A stretch of 64,000 nucleotides of DNA from an uncultured Gammaproteobacteria bacterium (GCA_964344965.1 CAYFPJ010000001.1:22771-86770), one strand, 5' to 3'. Positions 12,360 through 39,336 are shown, counted from the first letter of the stretch. The notes: generated by a model from the sequence alone, not told the origin. Made by a program: numbers and translations.

Positions 12360-14171
12360 ATGGAATATCGTACTCACAATTGTGGACAATTAAACACAAA
12401 ACAAGCTGGACAAGAAGTAATTCTTTCTGGTTGGGTACACCGTCGTCGAGACCTTGGTGGTCTTATTTTTATTGACCTCCGAGATCGTTATGGGATTACT
12501 CAGGTAGTTTTTCATCCTGATCAGTTGGCTGATTTTGCTGTAGCAGAAAGTCTGAAATACGAATACGTGGTCAGAGTAAAAGGTAAAATAGAAAACAGAA
12601 AGAAAGAAAATGTTAATAAAGATCTGAAGACTGGTGAGATTGAAGTGATGGCTACAGAACTGAGTGTCCTCAGTACAGCGAAGGCTATGCCTTTTGAGAT
12701 TTTTGAAACAAACAAAGGTGAAGAAGACGAAGAGCTGAGATTGAAATATCGTTTTCTTGAATTGCGTCGAGAAAGATTGCGTGAAAATATTATCTTCCGC
12801 GCCAAGATGGTCTCCCACATTCGTAAATATATGGACGAGCACGACTTTGTCCACATTGATACGCCAATCTTGACTGTTAGTTCACCAGAAGGGGCACGAG
12901 ATTTCCTCGTCCCATCTAGACTACATCCTGGTAAATTTTATGCCCTACCGCAAGCTCCGCAGCAGTACAAGCAGCTTTTGATGGTGGCTGGCTTTGATCG
13001 TTATTATCAGATTGCTCCTTGCATGCGTGATGAAGACCCGAGAGCCGACCGTTCTCCGGGAGAATTTTACCAGCTGGATTGTGAGACTAGTTTCATGAGT
13101 CAAGACGAGTTTTTTGAACTCATGGAACCCTTGTTTATCGAATTGACAGAAAAAGTTGCAGGTAAAAAAGTAAAATCAAAACCACTACCAAGGATTCCAT
13201 TCAAAGAGTGTATGGAGACTTATGGTAGTGACCGACCAGACTTGCGCTATGATCTTGAAATTCAAGAAGTAACAGAATGGGCCAAAGGAACAGACTTCAA
13301 AGTTTTCAACAGTGCAGAGCATGTCCGTGTTTTGGTGATCCCTGGAGGTGATAAATTTACTCGCAAAGAGATTGACAAAGAGTTTACAGATGTGGCCAAG
13401 AGAGCGCACGCCAAAGGACTGGCTTGGATGAAATATATAGATGGCAAGTTTGAAGGAGGGGTGAGTAAATTTTTTGATGATGATCAGCTAGAAAAGTTGT
13501 TGAATTTACTTAAGGCGAGACCCCCCTCCGACTCCCCCCTACAAGGGGGGAGGGAATCGGGTGGACTTGGGGATGCTATTCTTTTTTTCTCGGCTGATGA
13601 TTGGGAAGTGAGTTGTACAGCTCTTGGGGCGGTGAGGCATATGGCAGGAGAGAAGCTTGATCTGGCAGATCCAAATGAGGTTGCTTGGGCTTGGATAGTG
13701 GATTTTCCATTTTATGAGAAAGATGCGGAGACTGGCAAGATAGATTTTTCACACAATCCATTCTCAATGCCTCAAGGTGGTATGGAGACTCTAGAAAACA
13801 CAGATCCACTAGATATCAAGGCTTTTCAGTATGACATCATTGCTAATGGTCTTGAACTTAGCTCTGGCGGAGTACGAAACAAAGATCCAGAAATAATGTA
13901 CAAAGCATTTGAAATAGCTGGCTATACCAAGGAAGACGTGGATGCCAAATTTGGTCACATGATCAGAGCTTTTGAATTTGGTGCTCCTCCTCATTGTGGA
14001 TTTGCTCCTGGTATCGAGAGGATGGCTATGCTCCTCTTGGGAGAGAAAAATATTCGTAGCGTAGTTCCATTCCCCAAGAATCAAAAAGCAGAAGAACCAA
14101 TGGTGGGTAGTCCTGCTGAGGCCGATGAAGGGCAGTTGAAAGAATTAGGATTGGAAATAAAAAATATATGA
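12360..14171 (+). CDS. aspS: aspartyl-tRNA synthetase (bacterial type with GAD insertion)
   Basis: 603 aa. Motifs QQYKQLLMVAGFDRYYQIAPCMRDED, GGVRN, GFAPGIERM. Contains a GC-rich in-frame insert at about 13505-13562. Confidence 0.92.
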   Translation: MEYRTHNCGQLNTKQAGQEVILSGWVHRRRDLGGLIFIDLRDRYGITQVVFHPDQLADFAVAESLKYEYVVRVKGKIENRKKENVNKDLKTGEIEVMATELSVLSTAKAMPFEIFETNKGEEDEELRLKYRFLELRRERLRENIIFRAKMVSHIRKYMDEHDFVHIDTPILTVSSPEGARDFLVPSRLHPGKFYALPQAPQQYKQLLMVAGFDRYYQIAPCMRDEDPRADRSPGEFYQLDCETSFMSQDEFFELMEPLFIELTEKVAGKKVKSKPLPRIPFKECMETYGSDRPDLRYDLEIQEVTEWAKGTDFKVFNSAEHVRVLVIPGGDKFTRKEIDKEFTDVAKRAHAKGLAWMKYIDGKFEGGVSKFFDDDQLEKLLNLLKARPPSDSPLQGGRESGGLGDAILFFSADDWEVSCTALGAVRHMAGEKLDLADPNEVAWAWIVDFPFYEKDAETGKIDFSHNPFSMPQGGMETLENTDPLDIKAFQYDIIANGLELSSGGVRNKDPEIMYKAFEIAGYTKEDVDAKFGHMIRAFEFGAPPHCGFAPGIERMAMLLLGEKNIRSVVPFPKNQKAEEPMVGSPAEADEGQLKELGLEIKNI

Positions 14172-14529
14172 AAAGGTCTGGAGGATTAGAATATAAAAGT
14201 TCAAAGAGAAGTGCAGATAGCAGACTCTCTCAAGCCTTGGCTCATGCGAAAAGAGATTTACGCAATCATTTTGTTTCAAAAAACAGAGAGATAGACGAAG
14301 ATTTTTTTAATTCAGCGGGAACTCCCCGCCTGTTAAGGTGGGGATGAGAGTCAAATCCTGCTCAAGCAGGACAAGCCCAGCTTGAACTGTAGGCCTCAAG
14401 GCCACAAGTGCCACGGCTGTTAAGCCGTGGGTATCTACTGCTTTTCAGGAAAATGAGGCCCGACTTGCTTTTCAGGGAAATCCTCATGGGGATATCGAAA
14501 AACTAAGAGAAAAATTTTATCGTCCTGAT

Positions 14530-14721
14530 GTGACAGATCCGTCTCTGTGGCTAGAAGATACAAAAGGTAGGGTGATGGCAGAGCAGGCCCAGATTTTGGT
14601 GGGAGCGTTGGATATGGTGCGTAGTGGCAAGTCTAAGTCATTGGAGGTCTCACAAGCTTTGGCTTTGGCTGATTTGTTTATAAATCCTCCAAAAGACGTA
14701 TCTACTGGTGAATCATTTTAA
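14530..14721 (+). CDS. small hypothetical ORF (63 aa, GTG start) in a long intergenic region
   Basis: Only ORF-track support. Confidence 0.2.
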   Translation: MTDPSLWLEDTKGRVMAEQAQILVGALDMVRSGKSKSLEVSQALALADLFINPPKDVSTGESF

Positions 14722-14846
14722 AGTTTTTTAGAATAAAAATTACTATCCTCAGAGATAGTTTTTTATTGTATGAAGATAAAAAATATGCTATAATTATTTC
14801 GTTTTTTATGCCTTATTTTAGCAAAAATTTTGGAAATTATTGATTT

Positions 14847-15539
14847 ATGAATACTCCTATAAGCCTTGAGGAATTTAGTGGGCCACTTGATCTATTACTA
14901 TCTCTTGTACATGAAGAGAAGTTGGACATTACAGCTATTGCGCTTTCTCAGGTGACAGAACAATATATTGGCTATATAGAAGGTCTGGAGGAAAGTTCTG
15001 GTGAAGAGTTGGCTGACTTCGTAGTGGTGGCAGCCAGACTACTCCTCCTCAAATCTAGTAGACTAATGCCTCAGTTTGCGCCAGCAGAAGACGAAGGTCC
15101 AAGACTTGAAGATCAACTACGCTTATATCAGTCTTTTGTAAAAGCAAGCAAAGGTTTTAATCTTCTTTGGGAAAATGATAGGCAAAGTAGATTTCGTATC
15201 GAGCCACCACGGGTGTCGGAAGAATTTGTCATGCCAGCAAATACTACTCTAGCAAGCCTATACGAGTTCATGGTACAATTGATAAACCGGATCAAGCCTG
15301 CCAAACCATTACCGCAGACTCAGATTGACAGAGCAATATCCATCAAAGAAAAAATTGCAAATATTAGAAAATTGTTGAGAAGTAAAAAGAAGTTTAGTTT
15401 TCAGGAGGTACTAGAAGATTCAGAAAATAAGACAGATGTGATAGTAGGATTTTTGGCTTTACTCGAGCTGGTAAAACAAAAGCATGTGGGTCTAAAGCAA
15501 GAAGGTAATTTTGGGGATATTATGGTGAATCGGGCTTAA
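14847..15539 (+). CDS. scpA: segregation and condensation protein A
   Basis: N-terminus EEFSGPLDLLLSLVHEEKLDITAIALSQVTEQY is typical of the ScpA kleisin. Confidence 0.85.
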   Translation: MNTPISLEEFSGPLDLLLSLVHEEKLDITAIALSQVTEQYIGYIEGLEESSGEELADFVVVAARLLLLKSSRLMPQFAPAEDEGPRLEDQLRLYQSFVKASKGFNLLWENDRQSRFRIEPPRVSEEFVMPANTTLASLYEFMVQLINRIKPAKPLPQTQIDRAISIKEKIANIRKLLRSKKKFSFQEVLEDSENKTDVIVGFLALLELVKQKHVGLKQEGNFGDIMVNRA

Positions 15540-15584
15540 CACTTAAACACTTTAACACCTTAGCACTTAAACACTTGGTTTATT

Positions 15585-16121
15585 ATGAGTTCATTATTAT
15601 CAAAAATTGAGTCAATCCTCTTCGTAGCATCGAAGCCTTTGTCTTTCAAAAAGATTGCCAAAGCGGTGGGGAAGATGAGTGGAGAGGTGGCTCAGACGAT
15701 TGAGACTCTACAAATGAAATATAATAAAGAAGATTCTGGAATTCATTTGCTGGTGGAAGGAGAAACTGTTCAGATGGCCACTAATCCAAGTAATTCGGAT
15801 GTAATCGAGGGATTTGTAAAAGATCAGACCAGAGGAGAGCTGACTAAAGCTCAACTTGAGACTTTGACCGTGATAGCGTATCGCAGTCCCGTCACTCGTC
15901 CAGAATTGGAACAAATTAGAGGGGTGAATTGTGCTGTCATTATTCGAAATCTTCTTATAAGAGGTCTGATAAAAGAAAAGTCAGACAGTGACGCTCTTTT
16001 GCCAGAATATTCACTTTCTATAGAAGCTTTAAGTAATCTGGGTATTAGTTCTGTGAGTGAATTAAATAATTATGAAGATTTACATGCTCATGAGTATGTG
16101 GAGAACGTGGTAAATCAATAA
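15585..16121 (+). CDS. scpB: segregation and condensation protein B
   Basis: Winged-helix motif ETLTVIAYRSPVTRPELEQIRGV. Follows scpA. Confidence 0.85.
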   Translation: MSSLLSKIESILFVASKPLSFKKIAKAVGKMSGEVAQTIETLQMKYNKEDSGIHLLVEGETVQMATNPSNSDVIEGFVKDQTRGELTKAQLETLTVIAYRSPVTRPELEQIRGVNCAVIIRNLLIRGLIKEKSDSDALLPEYSLSIEALSNLGISSVSELNNYEDLHAHEYVENVVNQ

Positions 16122-16126
16122 ATAAT

Positions 16127-17158
16127 ATGGGAAATAATTTTTTGCAAATCGAACCAGGCAATGAAAGGTCTAATCGTTGGCGGAATTTTTTTGCTGTTTT
16201 TGTGGTTGCAACAGTATTTTTGACTGTAGGATTTTTTTCTACTGATTTGTCTACTAAATTTTTGATAAGTGGAGAAAAATTTGTAGAAAAAACTTTTCCA
16301 GTTTCTTCTGATCGAGAAGTGCAAGCCAGTGTAGGTGGAGATATAGTAGTGCAGCCAAAGAGAATTTTGTTGCCAGTTTTGGATGGAGATTTGCTTCCCT
16401 CTGACCAACTTACTGCCGCTAGTATATTTGCAAAAGATGTGGAGACTGGAGCAACTTTGTATGAAAAAAATACTTATCAGACAAGACCGATCGCTAGTAT
16501 AACTAAGCTGATGAGTGCTCTAGTAATTTTAGAAAAAAATCCAGATTGGGATTTGTCAGCTGTTGTTGTTTCAGACAATATACTTGATACTCATATGTAT
16601 GCTGGCGATACTTATACTCTTGATGAGCTATGGATTTCATCTCTGGTTGGTTCTTCCAATAAAGCCATCCTCACGCTTGCTGATGCTGTTGGTTGGCCAA
16701 GAGAAGCCTTTGTAGAACGCATGAACCAAAAGGCTCTAGAACTTGGAATGAGTGACAGTAACTTCGTTGATCCAACAGGTATAGAAGCTGGCAATATTGC
16801 TACTGCTTCTGATGTTGCTTTGCTTCTAGAAGAGAGTATGAGACAAGAAAAAATAGTAGAAGCATTGTTGACAAGAGAACAAGATTTGTATTCAAAAGAA
16901 AGAGAAAATTCCCACCATATTTGGAATACAAACTGGCTACTTCTTGGTTGGATTCCTCATACTCTCCCAGAAATACTTGGTGGTAAGACTGGTTATATTC
17001 CAGCTTCTGGATACAATTTTGCTATGCAAATCGTGAATGAGCAAGGGAAAATAATTGATGTCGTAGTGCTCGGGGCTGATGTTCATGAAGCCAGATTTAC
17101 CGAAGCTCGTGATGTGGCAGAATCTGTTTTTGGAAATTATACTTGGCCAGAAAATTAG
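16127..17158 (+). CDS. D-alanyl-D-alanine carboxypeptidase (S11 serine peptidase, PBP5/6-like)
   Basis: SxxK (ASITKLM), SxN (GSSNKA) and KTG (GGKTGYI) motifs in the correct order. N-terminal TM anchor. Confidence 0.8.
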   Translation: MGNNFLQIEPGNERSNRWRNFFAVFVVATVFLTVGFFSTDLSTKFLISGEKFVEKTFPVSSDREVQASVGGDIVVQPKRILLPVLDGDLLPSDQLTAASIFAKDVETGATLYEKNTYQTRPIASITKLMSALVILEKNPDWDLSAVVVSDNILDTHMYAGDTYTLDELWISSLVGSSNKAILTLADAVGWPREAFVERMNQKALELGMSDSNFVDPTGIEAGNIATASDVALLLEESMRQEKIVEALLTREQDLYSKERENSHHIWNTNWLLLGWIPHTLPEILGGKTGYIPASGYNFAMQIVNEQGKIIDVVVLGADVHEARFTEARDVAESVFGNYTWPEN

Positions 17159-17271
17159 GCACATAGGTAGATTTAGGTGCTTAGGTTATTAGGTTTTTGT
17201 GACTTGGTAATTTAAATTCCTAACAACCTAAAGACCTGTAGCCTATACTTACTTATACTTATCTAAGACCT

Positions 17272-17769
17272 ATGCTTAATCCCGTCGAATGGTTCACTAG
17301 CATCCCTCCTGAATGGGCAGTTTTTTTTCTGTCCATGATTCCTGTCACTGAACTTAGAGCTTCTATCCCTATTGGTATAGAGGTCTACAACCTTGCTGTA
17401 TGGAAAGTCTGGATTATTGCTGTTATTGGCGATCTTGTCCCAGCTTTATTTATTCTTTATTTTATTCCTTATGCTCATAAGTGGATAATGAAGAAAAAGT
17501 TTTTGGGACGTGTTTTGACTAAAAAACTTGAACATGCCGAAAAGGCTTTTGGTGGAAAATACCAAAAGTATGGAGCCATTGCTTTGGTTGTGTTTGTGGG
17601 AATACCCTTGCCAATGACTGGATCTTGGACAGGGTCACTGGCTGCATTTATATTTAATATTCCTTTCAAAAAGTCAGTACCTCTTATTACTGCTGGGATT
17701 TGCGTGGCAGCTACTTTGGTGACTTTGATTACATTGTTTGCTGGTGAAGCTATCCGTTCTGTAATATAA
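17272..17769 (+). CDS. small multi-pass membrane protein (COG2426-like putative small exporter family)
   Basis: 4 TM segments. The TELRASIP motif is reminiscent of COG2426 proteins. Low certainty. Confidence 0.4.
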   Translation: MLNPVEWFTSIPPEWAVFFLSMIPVTELRASIPIGIEVYNLAVWKVWIIAVIGDLVPALFILYFIPYAHKWIMKKKFLGRVLTKKLEHAEKAFGGKYQKYGAIALVVFVGIPLPMTGSWTGSLAAFIFNIPFKKSVPLITAGICVAATLVTLITLFAGEAIRSVI

Positions 17770-18413: not shown

Positions 18414-19385
18414 TTATTTTAGAGTAATTAATACTACCTCCGGGGGATTAAACAATCTCGCCCTCGTCCCAGACTCTCCAGTACCACTACTGACAAACAA
18501 TTTAAAATTTTTAACATCGTGTAAACCCTGGTACCATTGTGCTGGGGTTTTATTATCTATTCTTCCAAGTGGCCCCAAAAAAGGCAGGCGGATTTGTCCA
18601 CCGTGGGTATGTCCTGACAGCATCAAGTCAAAGTGATAATTTGATAAATCTTCCAGAGCTGCAACTGGATTGTGGATGAGAGCAATGGTTGGGGTGGTAG
18701 AGCTTGATGCGTTTATGTTTTTCCAGTTCAAATTACCAGACCAAGGGGCGTCCCCACCAAAAATGTCAATTTCTTGATTATCTATTTTGATTGTTTCTAA
18801 TTCGTTTACCAGATATTTTATTTCTAAGCTTTCTATTTTTTCTTTGGCTTCTTTTGAAACATCGGCTATACGATATCGAGGGTCAGTCACTGCTTTGCCA
18901 GAGCCAATACCGTATTCATGGTTGCCATGAATAGCAAAGGTTGGAAATTTTTCTACTAATTTTTTTAAAGGATCTAACATTACTAGCTCTTCTTCAATAG
19001 ACAGACTATTGTCTACTTGATCTCCACCTAGTAGGACAATATCAGGATTGAGAGAAATAACTCTCTCTACTATTTTTTCTGTATTTTTTACGTTACGATA
19101 CTGTCCAACTTGCATGTCAGTCACCAGAACTATCTCTATTTCCTGACCTAGATTTTCTAAATCAATTGATACTTTGTTTGTTACCAGGAGATGTGGCTCT
19201 ATGAAGCTCCCATATACTAATATTGCTGTCCCAAATAGCAACATTGTAGACATTAGGACTGTAGATTTTTTATGCTTGTATTCCCATGATTTTTTGTCTC
19301 TATTTTTGTGATATAACAAAATAACGGCTGGGAGAGCCGTGATAATAATTCCGATAGTGATGAGAAGGTCAAAGTATTTTTTCAT
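18414..19385 (-). CDS. membrane-anchored calcineurin-like metallophosphoesterase (YkuE-like)
   Basis: Phosphoesterase motifs are present in order: GDQVD, GNHEY and GHTHGG. The start is chosen at MKKYFDLL because the longer track ORF runs in-frame through two tRNA-type sequences. Confidence 0.8.
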   Translation of the reverse strand: MKKYFDLLITIGIIITALPAVILLYHKNRDKKSWEYKHKKSTVLMSTMLLFGTAILVYGSFIEPHLLVTNKVSIDLENLGQEIEIVLVTDMQVGQYRNVKNTEKIVERVISLNPDIVLLGGDQVDNSLSIEEELVMLDPLKKLVEKFPTFAIHGNHEYGIGSGKAVTDPRYRIADVSKEAKEKIESLEIKYLVNELETIKIDNQEIDIFGGDAPWSGNLNWKNINASSSTTPTIALIHNPVAALEDLSNYHFDLMLSGHTHGGQIRLPFLGPLGRIDNKTPAQWYQGLHDVKNFKLFVSSGTGESGTRARLFNPPEVVLITLK

Positions 19386-19394
19386 GTTGTCTTG

Positions 19395-19473
19395 TGCCCG
19401 AGGAGAGAATCGAACTCTCACTCCCGAAGGAACACGATTTTGAGTCCCGCCTTCGCTAAAGCTACGGCGGGCA
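19395..19473 (-). tRNA. degenerate tRNA-like sequence (CUCAAAA loop, long variable arm, canonical T-arm) lacking a proper D-arm and acceptor pairing; possible pseudo-tRNA or integration scar
   Basis: Reverse complement: GCCCGCC...GGCGGGACTCAAAATCGTGTTCCTTCGGGAGTGAGAGTTCGATTCTCTCCTCGGGCA. The T-arm is perfect. The 5' GCCCGCC pairs locally with GGCGGGC instead of with the 3' end. Confidence 0.35.
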
Positions 19474-19495
19474 GGCGTGCGTTTAATTATTTTCG

Positions 19496-19629: not shown

Positions 19630-20418
19630 TTGAGGTATAATATGCTACATATGTCCCGTGTTATAGCTATTGTCAACCAAAAAGGCGGAGTGGGAAAGAC
19701 CACGACAGCCATGAATTTGGCCGCTCATTTGGCTGAGCTTGGTAAATTTGTCTTACTCATAGATATGGATCCACAAGGTAATGCCAGTAGTGGACTTGGA
19801 TTTTCCAAAGACGATACACCTCATGGTATATACGAAGTTCTCGCTAGGCAAAAAAGAATGCATGATGTTGTTTTCAATACTGGACATGAGGGTCTGAGAA
19901 TAATTCCGGCTACTACCAATTTGGCTGGAGCGAACATAGAGCTGGTAGACATGGAAGATAGAGAGAGGCAACTCTTCAATTTGGTTGAAGAGGCTAAGCA
20001 CGCTTATGATTATATTATTATAGATTGTCCACCTTCTCTTGGTCTCCTTACAATCAATAGCTTGGTGGCTGCAGACGAACTTCTTATTCCTGTACAAGCA
20101 GAGTACTATGCTCTTGAAGGTCTTGGTCAACTTTTACAGACTATCAATTTAATTCAAGAACACATCAAGCCAGATCTGGGAATTCTTGGAGCAGTGATTA
20201 CTATGTTTGATAAGCGTACCAAGCTTTCTGGAGATGTCATGGATCAGCTATATCAGTATTTTCCAGATACCATATTCCGTTCTGTCATACCACGGACAGT
20301 CCGATTGGCAGAAGCTCCAAGTTTTGGTCAAACAATATTACAATACGATCCAAGAGGAAAAGGTTCGCGAGCCTATGAGAGGTTGGCTGTAGAAATTCTT
20401 GACAAACATAACAACTAA
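19630..20418 (+). CDS. parA: chromosome partitioning ATPase ParA/Soj
   Basis: Deviant Walker A IAIVNQKGGVGKTTTAMNLA and MDPQGN. The true start may be 19645 or 19651. Confidence 0.88.
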   Translation: MRYNMLHMSRVIAIVNQKGGVGKTTTAMNLAAHLAELGKFVLLIDMDPQGNASSGLGFSKDDTPHGIYEVLARQKRMHDVVFNTGHEGLRIIPATTNLAGANIELVDMEDRERQLFNLVEEAKHAYDYIIIDCPPSLGLLTINSLVAADELLIPVQAEYYALEGLGQLLQTINLIQEHIKPDLGILGAVITMFDKRTKLSGDVMDQLYQYFPDTIFRSVIPRTVRLAEAPSFGQTILQYDPRGKGSRAYERLAVEILDKHNN

Positions 20419-20457
20419 CAATTAACAACTAACAATCTTTGTCTGACTTGTTAATTG

Positions 20458-20604
20458 TTAAATCTTTAAGCGGTTTTATTCCTCGATGCTTGCATCGAAA
20501 AAGTGAAAACTAACATTGGTTGAAATAAGATTTTCTGCCAATACCCCGCAGCTTGCTGCGGGGATGGCCCGATGAAGTCTTACTTAAACCAAATTTACTT
20601 TTAT
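20458..20604. repeat. 147-bp element, copy A (exact duplicate of 27204-27350), ending 22 nt upstream of the parB ATG
   Basis: Identical sequence, read directly. Contains hairpins cgatg-cttg-catcg and ccccgcag-cttg-ctgcgggg (CUUG tetraloops). Confidence 0.85.
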
Positions 20605-20625
20605 TGTTAATTGTCAATTGTCATT

Positions 20626-27089: not shown

Positions 27090-27203
27090 TATATATCGCA
27101 CCATATTGAGAGAAAGTAAATTTTAGATATATTTATATATCTCTTACGGAATATAGGATTAACTAACTAAATATATATTTTACATTAACTTTACTAAATA
27201 ATT

Positions 27204-27350
27204 TAAATCTTTAAGCGGTTTTATTCCTCGATGCTTGCATCGAAAAAGTGAAAACTAACATTGGTTGAAATAAGATTTTCTGCCAATACCCCGCAGCTTG
27301 CTGCGGGGATGGCCCGATGAAGTCTTACTTAAACCAAATTTACTTTTATT
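27204..27350. repeat. 147-bp element, copy B, ending 4 nt upstream of the ATG at 27354
   Basis: Exact duplicate of 20458-20604. Confidence 0.85.
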
Positions 27351-27353: not shown

Positions 27354-27713
27354 ATGAAAAGAATGGACGCAGGGAAACCAAGAAAAAACGTTGATGCTCA
27401 AGAGTTGTCACATGGACATGTAAAAAGTAAAATTTTGGGTTTGACAAAATTTATAACTTCCAGTAGGGAAGGTCATATATTTCCGCAAGTAGATCAATCG
27501 CAATTGGTGCTTAACACTTTAGAAGAAGGTCGCGTCTTGGAAGATGCTGATTTAAGCTCAGTTGATTTGATATCATTTGTAGGTTCTATTGAAGAGGAGT
27601 TTGGTATTAATTTTGTTGGTCAGGAAATACACGGCTTACAACAATCAACTATAGATAAGATTGCTGAAAAAGTAATGGAAAAAATTAAAAATAAACCTAC
27701 TATGGATAGCTAG
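27354..27713 (+). CDS. acyl-carrier-protein-like protein (PP-binding domain with N-terminal extension)
   Basis: DADLSSVDLISFVGSIEEEFGINF...STIDKIAEKV aligns well with ACP [24 protein letters not shown]...helix 4. Confidence 0.5.
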   Translation: MKRMDAGKPRKNVDAQELSHGHVKSKILGLTKFITSSREGHIFPQVDQSQLVLNTLEEGRVLEDADLSSVDLISFVGSIEEEFGINFVGQEIHGLQQSTIDKIAEKVMEKIKNKPTMDS

Positions 27714-30171: not shown

Positions 30172-30187
30172 AATAAAAAGATGCTAA

Positions 30188-30207
30188 CCTGCCTGCCGGC
30201 AGGCAGG
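30188..30207. repeat. 20-bp GC palindrome CCTGCCTGCCGGCAGGCAGG
   Basis: Perfect copy, followed by ACGAAT-word-rich AT sequence. Confidence 0.8.
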
Positions 30208-30373
30208 TATACGAATTGTACTAATGATACTAATTGTATACGAATAATAAGATTAAGATAATTTGGTTGACTTTACTGACAATAGAATGATTTGAAAAAT
30301 ATATTAGTATTCATTCGTATCATTAGTAAAGTTAGTATATTGGTATCATATTTACAACATATGTTTGTATCGT

Positions 30374-31485: not shown

Positions 31486-31645
31486 GGATATTTAATCCCG
31501 ACCTCGTTCCTCGGTACGGGACGAGGGACTGGTTTAACCTGCCTGCCGGTCTTCGACTATGAAGCTCAGACTGAATAGCAGGCAGGCCCCCCGAGACTTG
31601 CTTCGGAAAAAAGGGTCCAGGGGCTTGTCTTAGGGTTCATACCTT
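31486..31645. repeat. about 150-bp structured repeat, copy 1; its internal GC palindrome is split by a 28-nt insert
   Basis: ttaatcccgacctcgttcctcggtacgggacgag...ggtttaacctgcctgccgg[tcttcgactatgaagctcagactgaata]gcaggcagg...gggtccag...catacc..ttgatt. Shared with 36248-36400. Confidence 0.75.
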
Positions 31646-33716: not shown

Positions 33717-35162
33717 TTATAGTGAATCATAGTCAAAGTCTTCTCCCAAGATTATCAGTATGTCTGATCCAGGGGCAAAGCTTTCTGTGCTGGGGAGATT
33801 TTCTTTGACAGGAATATCTAGTATTTCTTTCAGGGCTGGTGTAATATCTTTTTTCCCCTTATTGCTAACTTGGTATATACCACTTTCCAGTATTGGTCTT
33901 TCTGATGTGTTGCCTACTTTTGTGATAAGAAAATTATTTTTTTCTAATTCTTTTTTGGTCCGAGCTGCGAGACCAGCTTGCCATGTGCCATTTTGGATTT
34001 CTACATTTGCCTGACTGACAGTTGGTGTTTCTTGTTTGGGGGTATTGTCTTTTATTTTTACTGGGTTTTTTTGATCAAAAATCATCTCTATCATTTCACT
34101 TATTTCTTTAAAATTTCCAGAAGATGGCTCCAGAATGAAAGCTCCTTCTAGGCTGCGGGCATTTTTTAGGTATCCGTCAACACTATTGTCAAGCACCACT
34201 GTATTTATATTGTCGGTGTCTAATGTCTTACTTAATTTCAACATGGCAATAATATCTGAAAATTCCATGTTGGTGGTTATGTGCTTGTCTAAGGTTTTTA
34301 TAATATTGTGGATACGAATTGGATTGGCAAGTGTCTCAAAAGATATAACTTTTTCTTTTAGGGCTAGGATCATTTTTTGTTGCCTTTTTGCTCTTGCGAA
34401 GTCGGAGCCTTCTCCGTTATTGCCATGTCTTGATCTGGCGTACTGAAGAGCCTCTTCTCCATTCATATTGGTTATCCCTTTTTCGAAGTGGACAGTTTGA
34501 TATTCATGGTTGTCTGCTGGATATTCTAGATCTGTGAATGTCCGTTCTACATTTATTTTTATGCCACCTATCTCTTCTATCACATCTTTTACAGCCTGGA
34601 AGTCTACTCTTATGTAATAATGAATGTCTATATCGAACGTGTCGGAGATAACTTCTGTTGCTAATTTTGCTCCACTATTTTCTTTTTTTGCTTCACCTAT
34701 AGCGTTGGCACTGTTTATCTTTCTCCAGCCATACCCTGGAATTTTTACACCAAGATCACGAGGAATCGAGACCATCGATACTTGGTTGGTGGAAGGTTTG
34801 ATACTAGCAATGATGACGGTATCAGTCAAGAAGGGTCCGTCATGCCCAAGACCTCCCATGCCAAGAAGAAGGACATTGATACGGTCGTCTCTCTGCCCTT
34901 CTAATGTTATGTCTTTGCTGAATACGAAGTTCTTTATTCTTTTCAATAGACTGGCAGGTTTTTTTGGTTCCAGTGTAACCGGATCGTAAGCTTCTGGGTC
35001 GTTTGGTATGTTTTGTTGGATCATGCTTTTTGCTCCATATCCGCCAACCAAGACAACAGCAATAATTATGAAATATAAAAAAAAACGTGGTTTTTTATTC
35101 CGGTTTTTTATTCTTTTTTCTCTAGTATTTTCTTCTAAGAAATTTGTTTTCCTATTTTCCAT
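33717..35162 (-). CDS. LytR-CpsA-Psr (LCP) family cell-envelope phosphotransferase
   Basis: N-terminal TM, then LCP core INVLLLGMGG...DTVIIASI...SIPRDL. Confidence 0.85.
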   Translation of the reverse strand: MENRKTNFLEENTREKRIKNRNKKPRFFLYFIIIAVVLVGGYGAKSMIQQNIPNDPEAYDPVTLEPKKPASLLKRIKNFVFSKDITLEGQRDDRINVLLLGMGGLGHDGPFLTDTVIIASIKPSTNQVSMVSIPRDLGVKIPGYGWRKINSANAIGEAKKENSGAKLATEVISDTFDIDIHYYIRVDFQAVKDVIEEIGGIKINVERTFTDLEYPADNHEYQTVHFEKGITNMNGEEALQYARSRHGNNGEGSDFARAKRQQKMILALKEKVISFETLANPIRIHNIIKTLDKHITTNMEFSDIIAMLKLSKTLDTDNINTVVLDNSVDGYLKNARSLEGAFILEPSSGNFKEISEMIEMIFDQKNPVKIKDNTPKQETPTVSQANVEIQNGTWQAGLAARTKKELEKNNFLITKVGNTSERPILESGIYQVSNKGKKDITPALKEILDIPVKENLPSTESFAPGSDILIILGEDFDYDSL

Positions 35163-35316
35163 AATGGACCCTAGTATACGTGATTTTTTTATTTTTTACA
35201 ATCGATCTCTCTTTTTCTATTTTTAATCTTGTCTTGCTCAAAATGTCTTGCTCAAAATATTAGCTTTGTGCTATACTTAGTTTAAATTTGAACTCATATC
35301 AAGTTTTTCAAACCCA

Positions 35317-35399
35317 CCAAAATATTAACTTATTTTTTAGCCCCAAAACTCGTCTTTGGACTCACACAATTGTGTCTAAAAAATAAGTTAATATTTTGG
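35317..35399. promoter_or_regulatory. 24-bp perfect inverted repeat (ccaaaatattaacttattttttag / ctaaaaaataagttaatattttgg) with a nested 12-bp palindrome ACACAATTGTGT, in a divergent intergenic region
   Basis: Arms are exact reverse complements. The inner palindrome is at 35363-35374. Confidence 0.5.
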
Positions 35400-35462
35400 C
35401 TCTATTTTGGTCAAAAATAGGTAAAACTTAATACAAGTTCTTTAAGGAGTATTTTTCTGTTT

Positions 35463-35966
35463 ATGCCAGAAGCATTGTCAGAACAAACAACAATTGGAGA
35501 TATAAAGCACCGATGGACTATCCAAGAGTATGATAGCCATGATCGAGGTACTTTATGGCACATCCTCATGATCACTTTGGGGATAATATTTGTGGTGTAT
35601 GCCTTATGGACTGGTAATTTTTTGTTTGCCTTGATAGTGGTACTATTTTCAATAGTAATTTTTTTACAGTCTAATCAAGAAGCCTTACAAGTCAATTTCG
35701 CAATTACAGATCTTGGTATAGTGATTGGTCGTAGATTTTATGCTTATTCTGAATTTGAAAGTTTTTATGTGATTTACCAGCCACCGGAAGTAAAGACTCT
35801 GTTTCTAGAGACCAGAAGCACCTTCCGTCCATCGATTCGTATCCCTCTACTTGACGAAGATCCTGTGCAGGTCAGGAAAGATCTTTCTATTTTTTTGGAA
35901 GAGGATCTCGAAAAGGAAGATGAGCCACTTAGTGACAGAGCTGCGAGGAGATGGAAGATACATTAG
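35463..35966 (+). CDS. hypothetical membrane protein (2 TM, 167 aa)
   Basis: ORF with two hydrophobic helices. No motif. Confidence 0.45.
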   Translation: MPEALSEQTTIGDIKHRWTIQEYDSHDRGTLWHILMITLGIIFVVYALWTGNFLFALIVVLFSIVIFLQSNQEALQVNFAITDLGIVIGRRFYAYSEFESFYVIYQPPEVKTLFLETRSTFRPSIRIPLLDEDPVQVRKDLSIFLEEDLEKEDEPLSDRAARRWKIH

Positions 35967-36138
35967 TGAAATTTTCAATTTTTAATTTTCAATTTTTAAA
36001 ATTGTCTTATTGACAGTTTTATTTTTTTACGATATATTGTTGACGTCAAATGCCCCTGTTGCCCCTGTAGTTTCCCGACTTTGTCGGGATCAGCCTTTGG
36101 CTGATAATGGATAGTCCCGATATATAGATTTTGGTTCA

Positions 36139-36210
36139 GCTCTCGTCGTTCAACGGATAGGACACCAGTTTGCGGAACTGGCAATGCAGGTTCGATTCCT
36201 GCCGAGAGCA
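36139..36210 (+). tRNA. tRNA with anticodon GCG (reads as tRNA-Arg)
   Basis: GCTCTCG-TC-GTTC-AACGGATA-GGAC-A-CCAGT-TTGCGGA-ACTGG-CAAT-GCAGG-TTCGATT-CCTGC-CGAGAGC-A. All four stems pair. U33 and G37 are present. Confidence 0.75.
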
Positions 36211-36247
36211 CTATTTTTGAAGGTTTTGTACTACGTACGTTTCCTAC

Positions 36248-36400
36248 GATTTTAATCCCGACCTCGTTCCTCGGTACGGGACGAGAGATCGGTTTAACCT
36301 GCCTGCCGGCAGGCAGGTTCCCCGGGGCTTGCCCCGGAAAAATGGGTCCAGTCCCGATAAAATCGGGACTGGGGCTCATACCATTGATTTAAACTTTTTG
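36248..36400. repeat. about 150-bp structured repeat, copy 2 (intact GC palindrome at 36298-36317), 38 nt downstream of the tRNA
   Basis: Aligns with 31486-31645. Contains hairpins ccgggg-cttg-ccccgg and agtcccgat-aaaa-tcgggact. Confidence 0.75.
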
Positions 36401-36437
36401 GTATACTAGGATTGAAATGTTCTAGTTTTATTTTTTT

Positions 36438-37061
36438 ATGCAGAAGATAGAAAAAAATACTCCAAAAACACAAATTATTTTTTCAGTTATTATATTGTTG
36501 TTTGCCAATATACTTGTTATTGGTTTAGCCTTATTTTATTACTGGTCGCTTCATACATTTTTTTTGGTATTTTGGGCCCAAAGTTTGATTATTGGTTTTT
36601 TCTATATTTTGAAAATACTTGATCTAAAAAATTTTTCTACCGAGGGAGTAAAGGTCAATGGAAAATTGGTAAAACCAACAAAAAAGTTTAAAAAAGAAAG
36701 TGCTTGGTTTTTCTTACTCCATTATGGTTTTGTGCATTTTTGTATTTATTTTGCTATTGGTGATATGGCTGGGGAGGTTGATTGGAAAATGGTAATAATC
36801 GGGTCAATTATCTTCTTTGTAAATCACTGTTTGTCTTTTATCATAAATAGAAAACAAGATCGTCTACGGGTTTTTCATATTGGTAAAATTATGATTTTCC
36901 CATATTTGCGTATTTTTCCAATGATTATATTAATTTGGTTAGCATTGAACTTTGCTTCAGACCAATCAACACTTTTATTTTTTTTGGCATTTAAAATTGT
37001 GGCTGATATGACTATGCATGTTGTGGAGCATATTTGGCATGGTGAGACATCATTTTTGTAG
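36438..37061 (+). CDS. hypothetical polytopic membrane protein (207 aa)
   Basis: 5-6 hydrophobic segments. No motif. Confidence 0.45.
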   Translation: MQKIEKNTPKTQIIFSVIILLFANILVIGLALFYYWSLHTFFLVFWAQSLIIGFFYILKILDLKNFSTEGVKVNGKLVKPTKKFKKESAWFFLLHYGFVHFCIYFAIGDMAGEVDWKMVIIGSIIFFVNHCLSFIINRKQDRLRVFHIGKIMIFPYLRIFPMIILIWLALNFASDQSTLLFFLAFKIVADMTMHVVEHIWHGETSFL

Positions 37062-37065
37062 ATAC

Positions 37066-39336
37066 ATGAAATTAGATTCGCAGGTTTCACAATTGAATAG
37101 AGTCGGTAAAGTTCTGGAAAAAAAGCTAGGACGTCTTGGTATTGTTACAGTTGTAGATTTGCTAAATTATTTTCCTTTCCGTTATGAGGATTTTAGTCAG
37201 ATCGTAGATATAAAAGATTTACAAGAAGGATTGGAGGTGACTGTGCGAGGTAGAGTGGAATTGATAGCCAACAAGAGAAGTTCTCGTAAGCGAAAAATTA
37301 TTACAGAAGCAATAGTCAGTGACGGCACCGATAGTTTGCGAATTATCTGGTTTGGCCAACCCTTTATTACCAAGATTTTGAAAGCTGGAGATGATGTATT
37401 TTTTTCTGGTAAGGTGAAGGATGATATGTTTGGGTTACAGATGGTGGGACCGGGGTATGAGAAAGCTGGACAGAGGACTTCCCGCAGGACCTCACCCGCA
37501 CTCGCTTCGCTCGTGTCGACCTCTCCTGAAAGGAGAGGTGAATATGGTGGTGCTTCCAAACCTGCTTTAGATACGACGCACACCGCTCGTATTGTACCGA
37601 TATATCCTCTGACTGCGGGGGTTACACAGAAGCAAGTGCGTTTTTTGATGAAGCAGGTTATTGATTTGTCTAGTAGTATGGAAGATTGGCTGCCGGATGA
37701 TATTCAGGATCGGGTGGATGTCATGGAATTCTCAGAAGCCATAAAAGCAATTCATTTTCCTGATTCTCAAGATGAGCTTAGACATGCTGAAAGGAGATTG
37801 AAATTTGATGAGTTATTTCTCTTACAACTTCGAGCAGAGATGATCAGACAATCGATCAAGAGATCAAAGGCTCCAGAGATCAAATTTCAAGAAAATGAAA
37901 TCAAAACTTTTGTAGACTCACTTCCATTCAAATTAACTAAAGATCAAAAGATTGCTGCTTGGGAAATATTGCAGGATCTGGAAAAAGCAGAACCGATGAA
38001 TAGATTGCTGGAGGGAGATGTGGGGTCTGGAAAGACTGTGGTGGCAGCGATGGCTCTCTACAGTTCGGTGCTGAATGGTTTTCAAGGGGTGCTGATGGCA
38101 CCGACAGAGATTTTGGCGAAACAGCATTTTTCTTCACTGTGTGAATTGCTTGGCGGTAAAGTTAGTATTGGTTTGCTGTCACGTTCAGAACGAACAACGA
38201 ACAACGAACAACGAACAAGTGACAAAGAAGAAAGTTCGTCGATGGTTGATCGTAGTTCGTCAAAAAAATTGTCAAAGAAAAAAATGTTAGAGAAAATAGA
38301 GAATGGTGAATTGGAAATAATTGTTGGTACTCATGCCTTACTTTCTGATGACATAGGATTTGCAGACTTGGGTTTGGTCATCGTGGATGAGCAGCACAGA
38401 TTTGGAGTGGAACAGAGAAAAAAGATTCGAGAAAAGTCTGGTAATAAAAAAACATCTCCACATTTCTTATCTATGACAGCTACACCTATTCCACGTTCTT
38501 TTGCCCTCACTGTGTATGGTGATCTCGATTTGTCTATCATACGAGAGATGCCGGCAGGTCGGAAGCCAGTGCAGACTAGACTTGTGGACCCACATCAAAG
38601 GGATAAGGCGTATAGGTTTATCCGGGAGCAGGTGAGCGACGGTAGGCAGGTTTTTGTAGTGTGTCCTTTGATACAAGAAAAAGGAAAAGAGATAAGAGAT
38701 AAAGAGATACCTTTTATCTCGCAGCCTGCTAAACAGAATGCCTATCTTGTATCTCCATCTGTAGAAAAAAAATCAGTGCTTGCAGAATATGAGAAACTTT
38801 CTAAACAAATATTTCCAGATTTGAAAATTAGTTTTCTTCATGGCAAGATGAAGGCAAAAGAAAAGGATGAGGCGATGGCAAATTTTGTGACAGGGGAGAC
38901 AGATATCCTGGTCTCTACTTCGGTGGTGGAGGTGGGGGTGAATATTCCTAATGCCAGTGTGATGATGATCGAAGGTGCTGAAAATTTTGGCCTGGCCCAG
39001 CTACATCAGTTTCGTGGGCGTGTAGGTAGGAGTGGGCATCGATCTTATTGCTTTTTGTTTACTGATAGTGATAGCCAAAAAGTACAAGAAAGACTTTCTT
39101 TTTTTGAAAAAAATAATAGTGGTTTTGATGTGGCAGAATATGATCTGGAGATGCGCGGCCCAGGAGAGGTCTATGGTAAAGCTCAGAGTGGGATGGAGCA
39201 ACTGCGTCTGGCTTCGATGCGAGACGGTGAGTTGATTAAACTGGCTAGAGAAGTGGCGAGAGGAATTGATTTTGAGAAGTATCCTGAGCTGAGGGAGAAA
39301 GTGGAGGAATGGGAAGATTCTGTTCATTTAGAATGA
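37066..39336 (+). CDS. recG: ATP-dependent DNA helicase RecG
   Basis: Wedge/OB N-terminus, helicase motifs I (GDVGSGKT), II (DEQHRFGV), VI (QLHQFRGRVGRS). Start chosen at MKLDSQ. Carries a GC-rich in-frame insert (37448-37560) and a cgaacaa x4 tandem repeat (38191-38218). Confidence 0.9.
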   Translation: MKLDSQVSQLNRVGKVLEKKLGRLGIVTVVDLLNYFPFRYEDFSQIVDIKDLQEGLEVTVRGRVELIANKRSSRKRKIITEAIVSDGTDSLRIIWFGQPFITKILKAGDDVFFSGKVKDDMFGLQMVGPGYEKAGQRTSRRTSPALASLVSTSPERRGEYGGASKPALDTTHTARIVPIYPLTAGVTQKQVRFLMKQVIDLSSSMEDWLPDDIQDRVDVMEFSEAIKAIHFPDSQDELRHAERRLKFDELFLLQLRAEMIRQSIKRSKAPEIKFQENEIKTFVDSLPFKLTKDQKIAAWEILQDLEKAEPMNRLLEGDVGSGKTVVAAMALYSSVLNGFQGVLMAPTEILAKQHFSSLCELLGGKVSIGLLSRSERTTNNEQRTSDKEESSSMVDRSSSKKLSKKKMLEKIENGELEIIVGTHALLSDDIGFADLGLVIVDEQHRFGVEQRKKIREKSGNKKTSPHFLSMTATPIPRSFALTVYGDLDLSIIREMPAGRKPVQTRLVDPHQRDKAYRFIREQVSDGRQVFVVCPLIQEKGKEIRDKEIPFISQPAKQNAYLVSPSVEKKSVLAEYEKLSKQIFPDLKISFLHGKMKAKEKDEAMANFVTGETDILVSTSVVEVGVNIPNASVMMIEGAENFGLAQLHQFRGRVGRSGHRSYCFLFTDSDSQKVQERLSFFEKNNSGFDVAEYDLEMRGPGEVYGKAQSGMEQLRLASMRDGELIKLAREVARGIDFEKYPELREKVEEWEDSVHLE

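What the first reader, a model, noticed from the sequence alone, without database searches (positions are those of the whole stretch)
13505..37560. GC-rich hairpin mini-elements inserted in-frame inside aspS and recG, matching intergenic hairpins
aspS has a GC-rich block at 13505-13562 with the hairpin cccccctacaagggggg (peptide PPSDSPLQGGRESGG). recG has a block at 37448-37560 with the hairpin cctctcctgaaaggagagg (peptide TSPERRGEYGG).

The same kind of C-run/G-run hairpin occurs intergenically at 8188-8206 and 9091-9109. This is consistent with one family of small structured elements that inserts anywhere and is tolerated when length preserves the frame. It is analogous to in-frame REP or MITE insertions reported in some bacteria.
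Basis: partly seen in the sequence, partly recalled or inferred. Interest (0 to 1): 0.6.

Follow-up and report, generated by a model that had tools for sequence, protein, structure and literature searches.

The report
In-frame GC-hairpin mini-elements in genes
Two essential genes of a tiny uncultured bacterium (aspS and recG) carry recently inserted, translated copies of a roughly 35-base GC-rich hairpin repeat that also lies between genes, occurs across many bacterial phyla, and elsewhere typically brackets a small endonuclease gene (DUF559) that may be what moves it.

Summary
The window comes from a Candidatus Magasanikbacteria (CPR) genome of about 39% GC.

- **aspS:** it carries a 48-nt in-frame GC-rich insert (13521-13568).
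- **recG:** it carries a composite block of about 100 nt (37468-37572).
- **Orthologues:** both inserts are absent from the nearest orthologues and from solved structures.
- **Family membership:** the aspS insert and the intergenic copies at 8158-8194 and 9079-9113 match a covariance model built only from unrelated metagenome copies. A nested inverted copy at 8070-8124 has the same anatomy but was not detected by the model. The unit reads CCCCNC-CTAAC-(C-arm)-loop-(G-arm).
- **recG hairpin:** on its own it is not a significant match. It is linked to the family through intermediate forms in other RecG orthologues.
- **Recurrence:** six of 120 AspRS and 33 of 121 RecG orthologues carry different inserts at the same loops. 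Each AspRS carrier is a phylogenetic singleton, so gain has been repeated and recent.
- **Element properties:** sharp ends, no target-site duplication, frequent inverted doublets and nesting. It occurs in Deinococcus, Alpha- and Gammaproteobacteria and metagenomes of 29-71% GC. It is also found in frame in RF3, LeuRS and TrmD.
- **New lead:** DUF559 (Vsr-fold endonuclease) genes are bracketed by inverted copies, 9 of 10 in a sample chosen by protein alone. No DUF559 gene lies in this window.

Verdict: a REP/RPE-like selfish hairpin family with a probably new nuclease partner.

The parts
12360..14171 (+). aspS (bacterial-type aspartyl-tRNA synthetase), host gene
   Evidence: phmmer E=1e-151 to T. 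thermophilus AspRS. 100% identical to P0001, whose longest contig is 186,031 bp; its relatives are named Cand. Magasanikbacteria.
13521..13568 (+). 48-nt in-frame insert in aspS (PPSDSPLQGGRESGGL). Anatomy: box CCCCCCTC, pentanucleotide CCGAC, arm TCCCCCC, loop TACAA, arm GGGGGGA, then a tail GGGAATCGGGTGG that pairs back to the box.
   Evidence: Gap of 15 residues against 1EFW/6HHV. Absent in P0002/P0003 (87% identity) and in L001/L002 DNA. Covariance-model hit at 13521-13557, 14.4 bits, E=0.036. AlphaFold pLDDT below 50 for residues 388-401, lying between helix 374-385 and strand 406-413.
37066..39336 (+). recG (ATP-dependent DNA helicase), host gene. The ORF is open from 37018.
   Evidence: E=3e-144 to T. 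maritima RecG 1GM5. Orthologues are named RecG.
37468..37572 (+). Composite in-frame block in the RecG wedge-domain loop: 35 codons where the nearest orthologue has 3. It reads ACCTCACCCGCA + variable module CTCGCTTCGCTCGTG + TCGAC + hairpin CCTCTCC-TGAAA-GGAGAGG (37520-37538) + TGAATATGGTGG.
   Evidence: Empty site in L207/P0121 (76% identity): YEKA-TNN-TTHTAR. The same head, pentanucleotide and hairpin with a different middle module occur in L287 and L288. The hairpin alone scores E=2.3 against the family model. Local alignment to the aspS insert covers CGAC-hairpin-GAAT..GGTGG.
8158..8194 (+). Intergenic family copy (AACCCCCTCTAACTCCCCCTTTCCAAGGGGGAGGATT), right half of an inverted doublet between ruvX and recO
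   Evidence: Covariance model 28.5 bits, E=6e-6. Same form as the metagenome subfamily CCCCCTCTAACTCCCCC.
8070..8124 (-). Inverted family copy (reverse complement: CCACCTCTAAC-CCCTCC-[27 nt]-GGAGGGG) with a CCTGCCGGCAGGCAGG element nested in its loop; left half of the doublet
   Evidence: Sequence. The DNA fold of 8054-8220 gives -36.2 kcal/mol, z=-5.9; the two boxes pair with each other and the nested hairpin forms.
9079..9113 (+). Intergenic family copy downstream of recO (AACCCCTCCTAACCTCCCCTACGAGAGGAGGAATA)
   Evidence: Covariance model 36.6 bits, E=4e-8.
5871..5895 (.). Second hairpin family (AACCTGCCTGCCGGCAGGCAGGAAT). Other copies at 8084-8108, 30186-30210, 36296-36320 and 52485-52509. 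Short relatives at 5781-5796 and 12231-12246.
   Evidence: 10 pattern matches against 0.00 expected; repeat family D4. The same element occurs in frame in RecG of L209, nested in another palindrome.

Best explanation
The GC-rich blocks in aspS and recG are recent insertions of short, non-autonomous GC-rich stem-loop repeats. They belong to a dispersed family whose unit is about 33-38 nt and has sharp ends. The unit consists of a C-run box (CCCCNC), a pentanucleotide (CTAAC, with variants CCGAC, CCAAC, CTAGC), a C-rich arm, a 3-9 nt loop and a G-rich arm.

Copies land throughout the genome without duplicating the target. They often form inverted doublets and insert into one another. Inside genes, selection keeps only copies whose net length is a multiple of three, that carry no stop codon, and that fall in tolerant surface loops. 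There they are translated into Pro/Gly-rich disordered segments. This explains why the same loops of AspRS and RecG have been hit repeatedly in different Magasanikbacteria.

The most likely engine (inferred, not shown for this genome) is a small Vsr-fold endonuclease gene, DUF559/PF04480. In many phyla this gene is bracketed by inverted copies of this repeat. On this reading the gene plus its flanking repeats is the autonomous cassette, and the solo hairpins and gene-less doublets are its passengers or its landing sites. They would spread by nuclease-initiated nicking at the box/pentanucleotide junction followed by copy-repair.

- **Shown:** the anatomy, family membership of the aspS and intergenic copies, absence from close relatives, repeated independent gain, absence of a target-site duplication, cross-phylum distribution, and the DUF559 association.
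- **Inferred:** that DUF559 moves them, the cleavage site, and that this genome encodes such a nuclease.
For: **Absence from relatives and repeated gain**
- Both inserts are absent from solved homologues and from the nearest orthologues.
- Six of 120 AspRS orthologues carry different inserts at the same loop. Each is a singleton on the NJ tree, and its nearest neighbour at 75-91% identity lacks the insert.
- 33 of 121 RecG orthologues have at least 6 extra residues at the window's site. One clade of 86-92% identity shows four different states.
- Stepwise nesting is visible: P0152 has SAQGGSALGG where P0150 has SAQGAVPAGRQGSALGG, which is the CCTGCCGGCAGG element sitting in the loop of another palindrome.

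**Family properties**
- A model built from 20 unrelated metagenome copies finds 9079-9113 (E=4e-8), 8158-8194 (E=6e-6) and the aspS insert (E=0.036).
- The same model finds nothing in about 1.4 Mb of non-CPR control loci.
- In 127 metagenome copies with 126 distinct contexts, unqueried flanks are conserved only at -6..-1 (CCCCNC) and +1..+2 (RA).
- No target-site duplication or extended terminal repeat is seen.
- Inverted doublets with 2-40 nt spacers occur in at least 11 of 100 loci, as at 8070-8194 in the window.
- The syntenic relatives L001 and L207 have none.
- In-frame copies occur in RF3, LeuRS and TrmD of unrelated contigs.
- The element is present in Deinococcus, Rahnella, Azospirillum and Photobacterium.

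**DUF559 link**
- Eight PF04480 genes lie next to elements, abutted by inverted copies.
- In an independent sample chosen by protein similarity alone, 9 of 10 show box-pentanucleotide-hairpin repeats at the gene ends by eye. Five of 10 reach E<0.01 with the model.
- One such cassette sits between sufB and sufC.
- The genera with DUF559 hits overlap those with element hits.
- DUF559 is reported as enriched among predicted inversion targets (PMC9881135).
- The Vsr/DUF559 clade includes a homing endonuclease (PMC3424549).
Against: - No DUF559 ORF lies in the 64-kb window or in about 250 kb of other Magasanikbacteria loci. The proposed engine is therefore unverified for this lineage.
- The rest of the source genome could not be read. 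P0001 is not in the contig index, and the genome-contig scan returned mostly distant taxa.
- The recG hairpin by itself is not a significant family match (E=2.3). Its upstream module has no other copy in the window.
- The association of DUF559 with the repeats could mean that the nuclease gene targets pre-existing repeats rather than moving them.
- Both orientations of the bracketing repeats occur, which a single simple transposition model does not predict.
- No activity of any DUF559 protein on such DNA is known to me.
- The near-identical sequence across genomes of 29-71% GC is unexplained.
Confidence: 0.62

Rival explanations
1. The elements are classical REP/REPIN sequences mobilised in trans by a Y1 HUH transposase (a RAYT or IS200/IS605 TnpA) acting on single-stranded hairpin DNA.
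For: - The unit is a short GC-rich hairpin with a conserved short motif at its foot.
- There is no target-site duplication or terminal repeat.
- Inverted doublets are common.
- Insertion into hairpin loops occurs.
- A Y1_Tnp gene (PF01797, E=3e-6) lies next to aspS in the related locus L004.
Against: - No Y1 gene lies in the window.
- The L004 gene has an internal stop and is not flanked by these repeats.
- The only clear RAYT among about 200 element-bearing loci (L129) is flanked by its own GTAG-tagged REPs, not by this element.
- The motif is CTAAC plus a C-run, not GTAG or CGTC.
- The gene actually found bracketed by the repeats is DUF559.
Confidence: 0.13
2. The hairpins are host-selected functional structures, such as mRNA stabilisers, terminators, translation pause sites or protein-binding sites. 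On this reading they arose or were retained for function, and DUF559 is a bystander or a parasite of them.
For: - Many copies in cultured bacteria sit just 3' of genes or between convergent genes.
- The sequence is conserved across phyla.
- The structures are stable.
Against: - Copies are patchy among close relatives.
- They occur inside unrelated essential coding regions in both orientations.
- No T-run follows the hairpin.
- The window's copy at 9079-9113 is followed by a separate terminator-like hairpin with a T-run.
- There is no Rfam match.
Confidence: 0.12
3. The inserts are old lineage features of AspRS and RecG loops, lost many times. Alternatively they are local products of slippage or palindrome-forming replication errors and not copies of a dispersed element.
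For: - The same loops vary in many orthologues.
- Some RecG inserts share a head and a hairpin across proteins of 65-68% identity.
Against: - The six AspRS carriers are scattered singletons with different lengths and sequences.
- The insert DNA matches intergenic copies and copies in unrelated phyla, including the non-palindromic box.
- Perfect 8-9 bp stems persist where the host genes differ by about 25% at the DNA level.
Confidence: 0.05

Closest known systems
REP / REPIN elements with RAYT transposases (Nunvar 2010; Bertels & Rainey 2011, PMC3116915; review PMC3184786)
   Same: - A GC-rich stem-loop of 20-40 nt with a short conserved motif at one end.
- Dispersed, mostly intergenic copies.
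- Inverted doublets and no target-site duplication.
- A small nuclease-type gene bracketed by inverted copies.
   Different: - The motif is CCCCNC-CTAAC, not GTAG or CGTC.
- The bracketed gene is DUF559 (Vsr / PD-(D/E)XK fold), not a Y1 HUH transposase.
- Nearly the same sequence is found across phyla, whereas REPs are species-specific.
- Copies are found in frame inside essential genes.
Rickettsia palindromic elements, RPE (Ogata et al. 2000, cited in PMC3184786 and PMC1779305)
   Same: Palindromic selfish DNA inserted in frame into conserved, even essential, protein genes; translated and located in surface regions; also intergenic.
   Different: RPEs are about 105-146 nt and restricted to Rickettsia. 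Here the unit is 33-48 nt, GC-rich in an AT-rich genome, cross-phylum, and recurrently hits the same loops.
Cyanobacterial small dispersed repeats, SDR (Elhai et al. 2008; from my own knowledge, paper not held)
   Same: Very small (21-27 nt) hairpin-forming dispersed repeats that nest in one another and show presence/absence between relatives.
   Different: Sequence relationship not tested. No associated gene was reported, to my knowledge. The elements here have a box-pentanucleotide head and a candidate nuclease partner.
Free-standing or intron-borne homing endonuclease genes of the Vsr/DUF559 clade (I-Bth0305I type; PMC3424549)
   Same: A small Vsr-fold nuclease gene behaving as an insertion cassette, for example between sufB and sufC.
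   Different: No intron or intein context. The cassette carries inverted hairpin repeats and has gene-less relatives scattered in the genome.
GC clusters and double-hairpin elements of fungal mitochondrial genomes (from my own knowledge)
   Same: GC-rich palindromic mini-elements in an AT-rich genome, occasionally in frame in coding genes.
   Different: Organellar, with unrelated sequence and no nuclease partner identified here.

Membership tests
REP/REPIN-RAYT | Short (20-40 nt) GC-rich imperfect palindrome, dispersed in many copies | tested here: met
   Unit of 33-38 nt with sharp ends. Three model-detected copies, one further nested copy and a derivative (recG) in 64 kb.
REP/REPIN-RAYT | Conserved GTAG (or CGTC) tetranucleotide at one end of the palindrome | tested here: not met
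   The head is CCCCNC + CTAAC. True GTAG REPs were seen only around the RAYT of L129.
REP/REPIN-RAYT | Inverted doublets (REPINs) | tested here: met
   Window 8070-8194. At least 11 of 100 metagenome loci have an inverted partner 2-40 nt away.
REP/REPIN-RAYT | A Y1 HUH transposase gene flanked by the repeats | tested here: not met
   None in the window. The L004 Y1 gene is not flanked by them. The L129 RAYT is flanked by other REPs. DUF559 is the flanked gene.
MITE (DDE-transposon derived) | Terminal inverted repeats plus a target-site duplication; typically 100-400 bp | tested here: not met
   No direct or inverted flank repeats above shuffled expectation in 124 copies. The unit is about 35 nt.
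Rickettsia palindromic elements | In-frame insertion of a palindromic repeat into conserved protein genes | tested here: met
   aspS and recG; RF3, LeuRS and TrmD.
Rickettsia palindromic elements | Element of about 105-146 nt belonging to the RPE sequence families | tested here: not met
   The unit is 33-48 nt. Size as given in PMC3184786. Sequence comparison with RPE consensus sequences was not run.
Intrinsic terminators | GC-rich hairpin followed by a T-run | tested here: not met
   Downstream positions +1..+20 show A/G then random composition, with no T-run.
Integron attC sites | R'' (RYYYAAC) ... R' (GTTRRRY) in that order, with an integron integrase | tested here: not met
   Single units have only the RYYYAAC-like half. 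In the window doublet the order is GTTAGAG...CTCTAAC, the reverse. No integrase was seen among the 10 window ORFs scanned against Pfam; most window ORFs were not scanned.
DUF559-bracketing hairpin repeats (grouping proposed here) | Box-pentanucleotide-hairpin unit matching the model built from metagenome copies | tested here: met
   9079-9113 E=4e-8; 8158-8194 E=6e-6; aspS E=0.036. The recG hairpin alone is not significant, E=2.3.
DUF559-bracketing hairpin repeats (grouping proposed here) | A PF04480 gene bracketed by inverted copies in the same genome | not testable with these tools
   None in the window or in other Magasanikbacteria loci. The remaining 122 kb or more of the source contig and the rest of the genome could not be fetched.

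The most novel reading that the evidence does not exclude
A pan-bacterial family of GC-rich hairpin mini-elements of about 35 nt (CCCCNC-CTAAC-stem-loop) is propagated by, or co-propagates with, the hitherto uncharacterised DUF559 Vsr-fold endonuclease. On this reading it is a nuclease-plus-hairpin selfish system analogous to RAYT/REP but built on a different enzyme fold. It would have spread from CPR bacteria to Deinococcus, Proteobacteria and Cyanobacteria, and it repeatedly writes short Pro/Gly-rich loops into essential proteins such as AspRS, RecG, RF3, LeuRS and TrmD.
Probability: 0.35. Interest if true: 0.8.

Novelty: new variant of a known kind. Interest (0 to 1): 0.66.

Why it matters
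- **A role for DUF559.** If DUF559 is the partner of these hairpins, a very common 'domain of unknown function' gets a role. A second enzyme class besides Y1 transposases would then be tied to REP-like repeats.
- **Spurious or odd annotations explained.** The elements account for many Pro/Gly-rich peptides (PPLxxPPLxGGE, PAGRQ, TSPxRRG) and for length variation in conserved proteins of CPR and other bacteria.
- **Protein evolution and markers.** The elements show that even minimal genomes tolerate selfish DNA inside essential genes, which supplies raw material for new surface loops. The recurrent hot-spot loops are natural presence/absence markers for strain-level population studies.
- **Annotation pitfalls.** The hairpins can mislead gene callers, aligners and phylogenies.

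Tried and rejected
**Searches and scans that led nowhere**
- Rfam at gathering threshold on the whole window, and at E-value threshold on 8000-9700 and 14100-14900, gave only two tRNAs and chance-level hits.
Only L005-L007 were Magasanikbacteria, and they had no elements.
- The apparent 360-nt 'extra' in the L007 AspRS match was the upstream paralogue, not an insert.
- The source contig could not be retrieved by exact protein look-up.
- A concatenated protein from the two ORF fragments at 14169-14722 found no homologues, so whether a hairpin cluster split that gene is undecided.
- The viral contig scan gave only 74 stretches holding 77 copies, of which 43 have the family head, so phages are not an obvious reservoir.
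- The DUF559 search of viral contigs failed because the alignment was too diverse and the single protein found nothing.
- MAFFT could not align copies with different loop lengths, so the model was built from 20 equal-length copies.

**Ideas tested and dropped**
- Triplex or mirror-repeat idea: box CCCCTC could act as a third strand for GGGGAG. Not supported, because the key position is T in only 33% of copies.
- attC-like reading: rejected because the order of the cores is reversed.
- A tRNA with an inserted element at 19381-19480: ARAGORN with introns allowed finds only tRNA-Leu.
- No transposase lies between paired copies in L201.

**Literature**
- Searches for CPR/Patescibacteria together with REP, palindromic or in-frame terms, and for the element sequence itself, found nothing relevant.

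Full report
**Source and setting.** The window has about 39% GC. Its AspRS is 100% identical to a database protein whose longest contig is 186,031 bp, and the relatives of that protein are named Candidatus Magasanikbacteria, a CPR/Patescibacteria group. Against this AT-rich background, a 40-nt sliding GC scan picks out a handful of GC-rich islets. These include the two blocks named in the finding.

**Checking the observation.**
- aspS (12360-14171, +) aligns end to end with T. thermophilus AspRS (E=1e-151), apart from a 15-residue gap exactly at ARP|GD.
- The extra codons 388-403 (13521-13568) read PPSDSPLQGGRESGGL. They contain the perfect stem CTCCCCCC/GGGGGGAG.
- recG (37066-39336, +) aligns with T. 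maritima RecG in three pieces. The first break coincides with the GC-rich block that holds CCTCTCC-TGAAA-GGAGAGG at 37520-37538.
- The intergenic hairpin at 9091-9109 is as stated.

**Are they inserts?** Yes.
- The closest AspRS orthologues (P0002/P0003, 87% identity) and their DNA (L001/L002) lack the segment.
- The closest RecG orthologue (P0121/L207, 76% identity) has YEKA-TNN-TTHTAR where the window has 35 residues.
- AlphaFold places AspRS residues 388-401 in a loop with pLDDT below 50, between a confident helix and a confident strand.

**Recurrent, independent gain.**
- Among 120 Magasanikbacteria AspRS sequences, six carry an insert within two residues of the same position (P0001, P0011, P0014, P0017, P0036, P0111). 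The inserts range from 12 to 43 residues and share a P-P-L...G-G-E flavour.
- On a neighbour-joining tree each of the six is a singleton. Its nearest neighbour (75-91% identical) lacks the insert.
- At the DNA level, the L003 insert is CCCCCCCCCAACCCTCCCCTAAAAGGGGAGGGGATT. The L004 insert is a related, more decayed copy.
- In RecG, 33 of 121 orthologues have at least 6 extra residues at the window's site, and several other loops vary too.
- One clade of 86-92% identity shows four different states of that loop.
- P0152 has SAQGGSALGG where P0150 has SAQGAVPAGRQGSALGG. In DNA this is a CCTGCCGGCAGGCAGG element sitting in the loop of another palindrome. That is a direct snapshot of stepwise nesting.

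**The family.** The window copies share a non-palindromic head as well as the hairpin: a C-run box, a pentanucleotide, a C-arm, a loop and a G-arm.
- In 127 copies with 126 distinct contexts, from contigs of 29-71% GC, the unqueried flanks are conserved only at -6..-1 (C93 C96 C88 C88 N C74) and +1..+2 (R, A). Beyond those positions the composition is random, so the unit has sharp ends.
- There is no target-site duplication or extended terminal repeat.
- I built a covariance model from 20 equal-length metagenome copies, none from this window. With filters off it finds 9079-9113 (36.6 bits, E=4e-8), 8158-8194 (28.5 bits, E=6e-6) and the aspS insert (14.4 bits, E=0.036). The recG hairpin alone scores 7.6 bits (E=2.3).
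- As a control, 1.58 Mb from 86 loci, mostly aspS neighbourhoods of Streptomyces, Alphaproteobacteria and others, gave hits only in the Magasanikbacteria loci L003, L208 and L209.
- The relatives L001 and L207, syntenic with the window, have no copies. The expansion is therefore lineage-specific.

**The recG block.** It is a composite.
- The RecG genes in L287 and L288 carry, at the same site, ACC(C/T)CACCCGC + a different 18-21 nt module + TCGAC + C(T/C)CCC hairpin + GTG.
- The window has ACCTCACCCGCA + CTCGCTTCGCTCGTG + TCGAC + CCTCTCC hairpin + GTGAAT.
- The L287 version (CCCCACC...CGAC-CTCCCC-TAAAA-GGGGAGG) bridges to the canonical family.
- L208 carries a canonical copy at that very site.
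- I therefore regard the recG insert as a derivative with a variable module between box and pentanucleotide. This rests on intermediates, not on a significant score.

**Other anatomy in the window.**
- Region 8054-8220 holds two family copies in inverted orientation 33 nt apart. A member of a second family (CCTGCCGGCAGGCAGG) is nested in the loop of the left copy. The region folds at -36 kcal/mol, z=-5.9.
- The second family has 10 pattern matches against none expected. Here all of them are intergenic, but the element is in frame in RecG of other genomes as PAGRQ peptides.
- Inverted doublets with 2-40 nt spacers recur in at least 11 of 100 metagenome loci.

**Breadth.**
- BLAST against plasmid and chromid records finds the unit in Photobacterium sp. 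GJ3 (at least 40 places on one replicon, partly in arrays), Rahnella, Deinococcus, Azospirillum, Aeromonas and Sphingomonas.
- Three of these were read directly and have the full anatomy, lying 3' of genes or between convergent genes.
- In metagenome contigs the unit also sits in frame in RF3 (two units between G2 and G3), in the N-terminus of LeuRS, and in TrmD. All three were confirmed by Pfam. Both orientations occur in genes.

**Mechanism.**
- The REP/RAYT model was my first guess. However, the only clear RAYT among the element-bearing loci is flanked by its own GTAG REPs. The Y1 gene next to aspS in L004 is not flanked by these repeats.
- An all-against-all comparison of ORFs near elements instead revealed DUF559 (PF04480) genes in seven metagenome loci and in Photobacterium. 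All eight were confirmed at E=1e-30 to 1e-41. Inverted copies of the element abut their start and stop.
- None was found in the control loci or in the window.
- To remove the selection bias I sampled DUF559 genes by protein similarity alone from the plasmid collection and read ten of them. By eye, nine have box-pentanucleotide-hairpin repeats at the gene ends, at least seven of them on both sides in inverted orientation. The repeats come in lineage-specific sequence variants.
- The CTAAC-type model reaches E<0.01 in five of the ten.
- One cassette sits between sufB and sufC. Two Deinococcus species have it at different places in a hpa cluster.
- A published survey lists DUF559 as enriched among predicted inversion targets (PMC9881135). 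That fits flanking inverted repeats.
- The Vsr/DUF559 clade includes a homing endonuclease (PMC3424549).
- I therefore propose that the DUF559 gene plus its inverted hairpins is the autonomous unit, and that solo hairpins and gene-less doublets are its passengers or landing sites.
- This remains inference. No DUF559 gene is in the window or in about 250 kb of other Magasanikbacteria DNA. The direction of the relationship (mover or parasite of the repeats) is open.

**Comparison with known systems.** In-frame insertion of palindromic repeats is known from Rickettsia RPEs and a few other repeats (PMC3184786). Small hairpin repeats with a bracketed nuclease gene are known as REP/RAYT. This case shares their logic but differs in the following ways:
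- its size, about 35 nt;
- its head motif;
- its cross-phylum sequence conservation;
- the recurrent hot-spot loops;
- the candidate partner enzyme.

I found no paper describing it, either for CPR bacteria or for DUF559. The library is incomplete, however.

**Verdict.** I rate it a new variant of a known kind, with moderately high interest. That interest rests mainly on the DUF559 lead and the cross-phylum reach, both of which can be tested directly.

Noticed in passing
window 20458-20605 and 27203-27350: Exact 148-nt duplicate 6.7 kb apart, containing the hairpin CCCCGCAGCTTGCTGCGGGG. The first copy lies upstream of parB and the second upstream of ORF 27354-27713. Its function is unknown.
   Followed up: no
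window 9182-9353 (in orphan ORF 9154-9537): A 172-nt block of 67% GC in a 39% GC genome, with a perfect 11-bp palindrome at 9276-9300. The ORF has no Pfam hit and the region has no Rfam hit.
   Followed up: partly
window 14172-14846: A 676-nt stretch with no long ORF between aspS and scpA. A cluster of hairpins at 14300-14480 separates two ORF fragments in different frames. The joined protein has no homologues, so a gene split by hairpin insertion is possible but unproven.
   Followed up: partly
window 4585-4618, 7768-7801 (inside ruvX ORF 7679-8053), 20399-20439: AT-rich heptamer arrays (TTAACAA/AACAATT)n. One lies inside the ruvX reading frame, which hints at a second, AT-rich class of in-frame repeat.
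   Followed up: no
window recG, residues about 378-419 and 556-580 of the 772-aa ORF (about 38150-38275 and 38685-38760): Two further lineage-specific, non-GC-rich extra segments in RecG. Orthologues show recurrent peptides at these loops (DTNKFQISN, EIEIINYPD), which suggests AT-rich repeat families (ACGAAT-type).
   Followed up: partly
RecG orthologues P0147, P0158, P0171, P0193, P0197, P0205: A GxxExxY (PF13366, PD-(D/E)XK-like) domain of about 180 aa is inserted in frame in the RecG helicase core of several Magasanikbacteria, next to GGSASGGK-type hairpin peptides. This is another small nuclease riding inside an essential gene.
   Followed up: no
window 31491-31549 and 36251-36309: A 59-nt repeat (95% identical) made of a CCCGACCTCGTTCCTCGGTACGGGACGAGG hairpin fused to the CCTGCCTGCCGG element. 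The second copy follows tRNA-Arg.
   Followed up: no
L004 9330-9911: A Y1_Tnp (IS200-like) gene next to aspS in a related genome has an in-frame stop. It also carries a long palindrome (CCGTAGGGAGAGGTCTAGACCTGTCCCTACGG) inserted after its HVH motif.
   Followed up: partly
window 19381-19480 (-): tRNA-like sequence (T-arm GAGAGTTCGATTCTCTC, acceptor-like ends) next to tRNA-Leu. Neither ARAGORN nor Rfam recognises it, so it may be a decayed or interrupted tRNA.
   Followed up: partly
L205 3118-3686 and L206 20366-20995 (Photobacterium sp. GJ3): The hairpin unit is embedded in tandem arrays with a period of about 138-148 nt next to a DUF559 gene, a different organisation from the solo copies.
   Followed up: no
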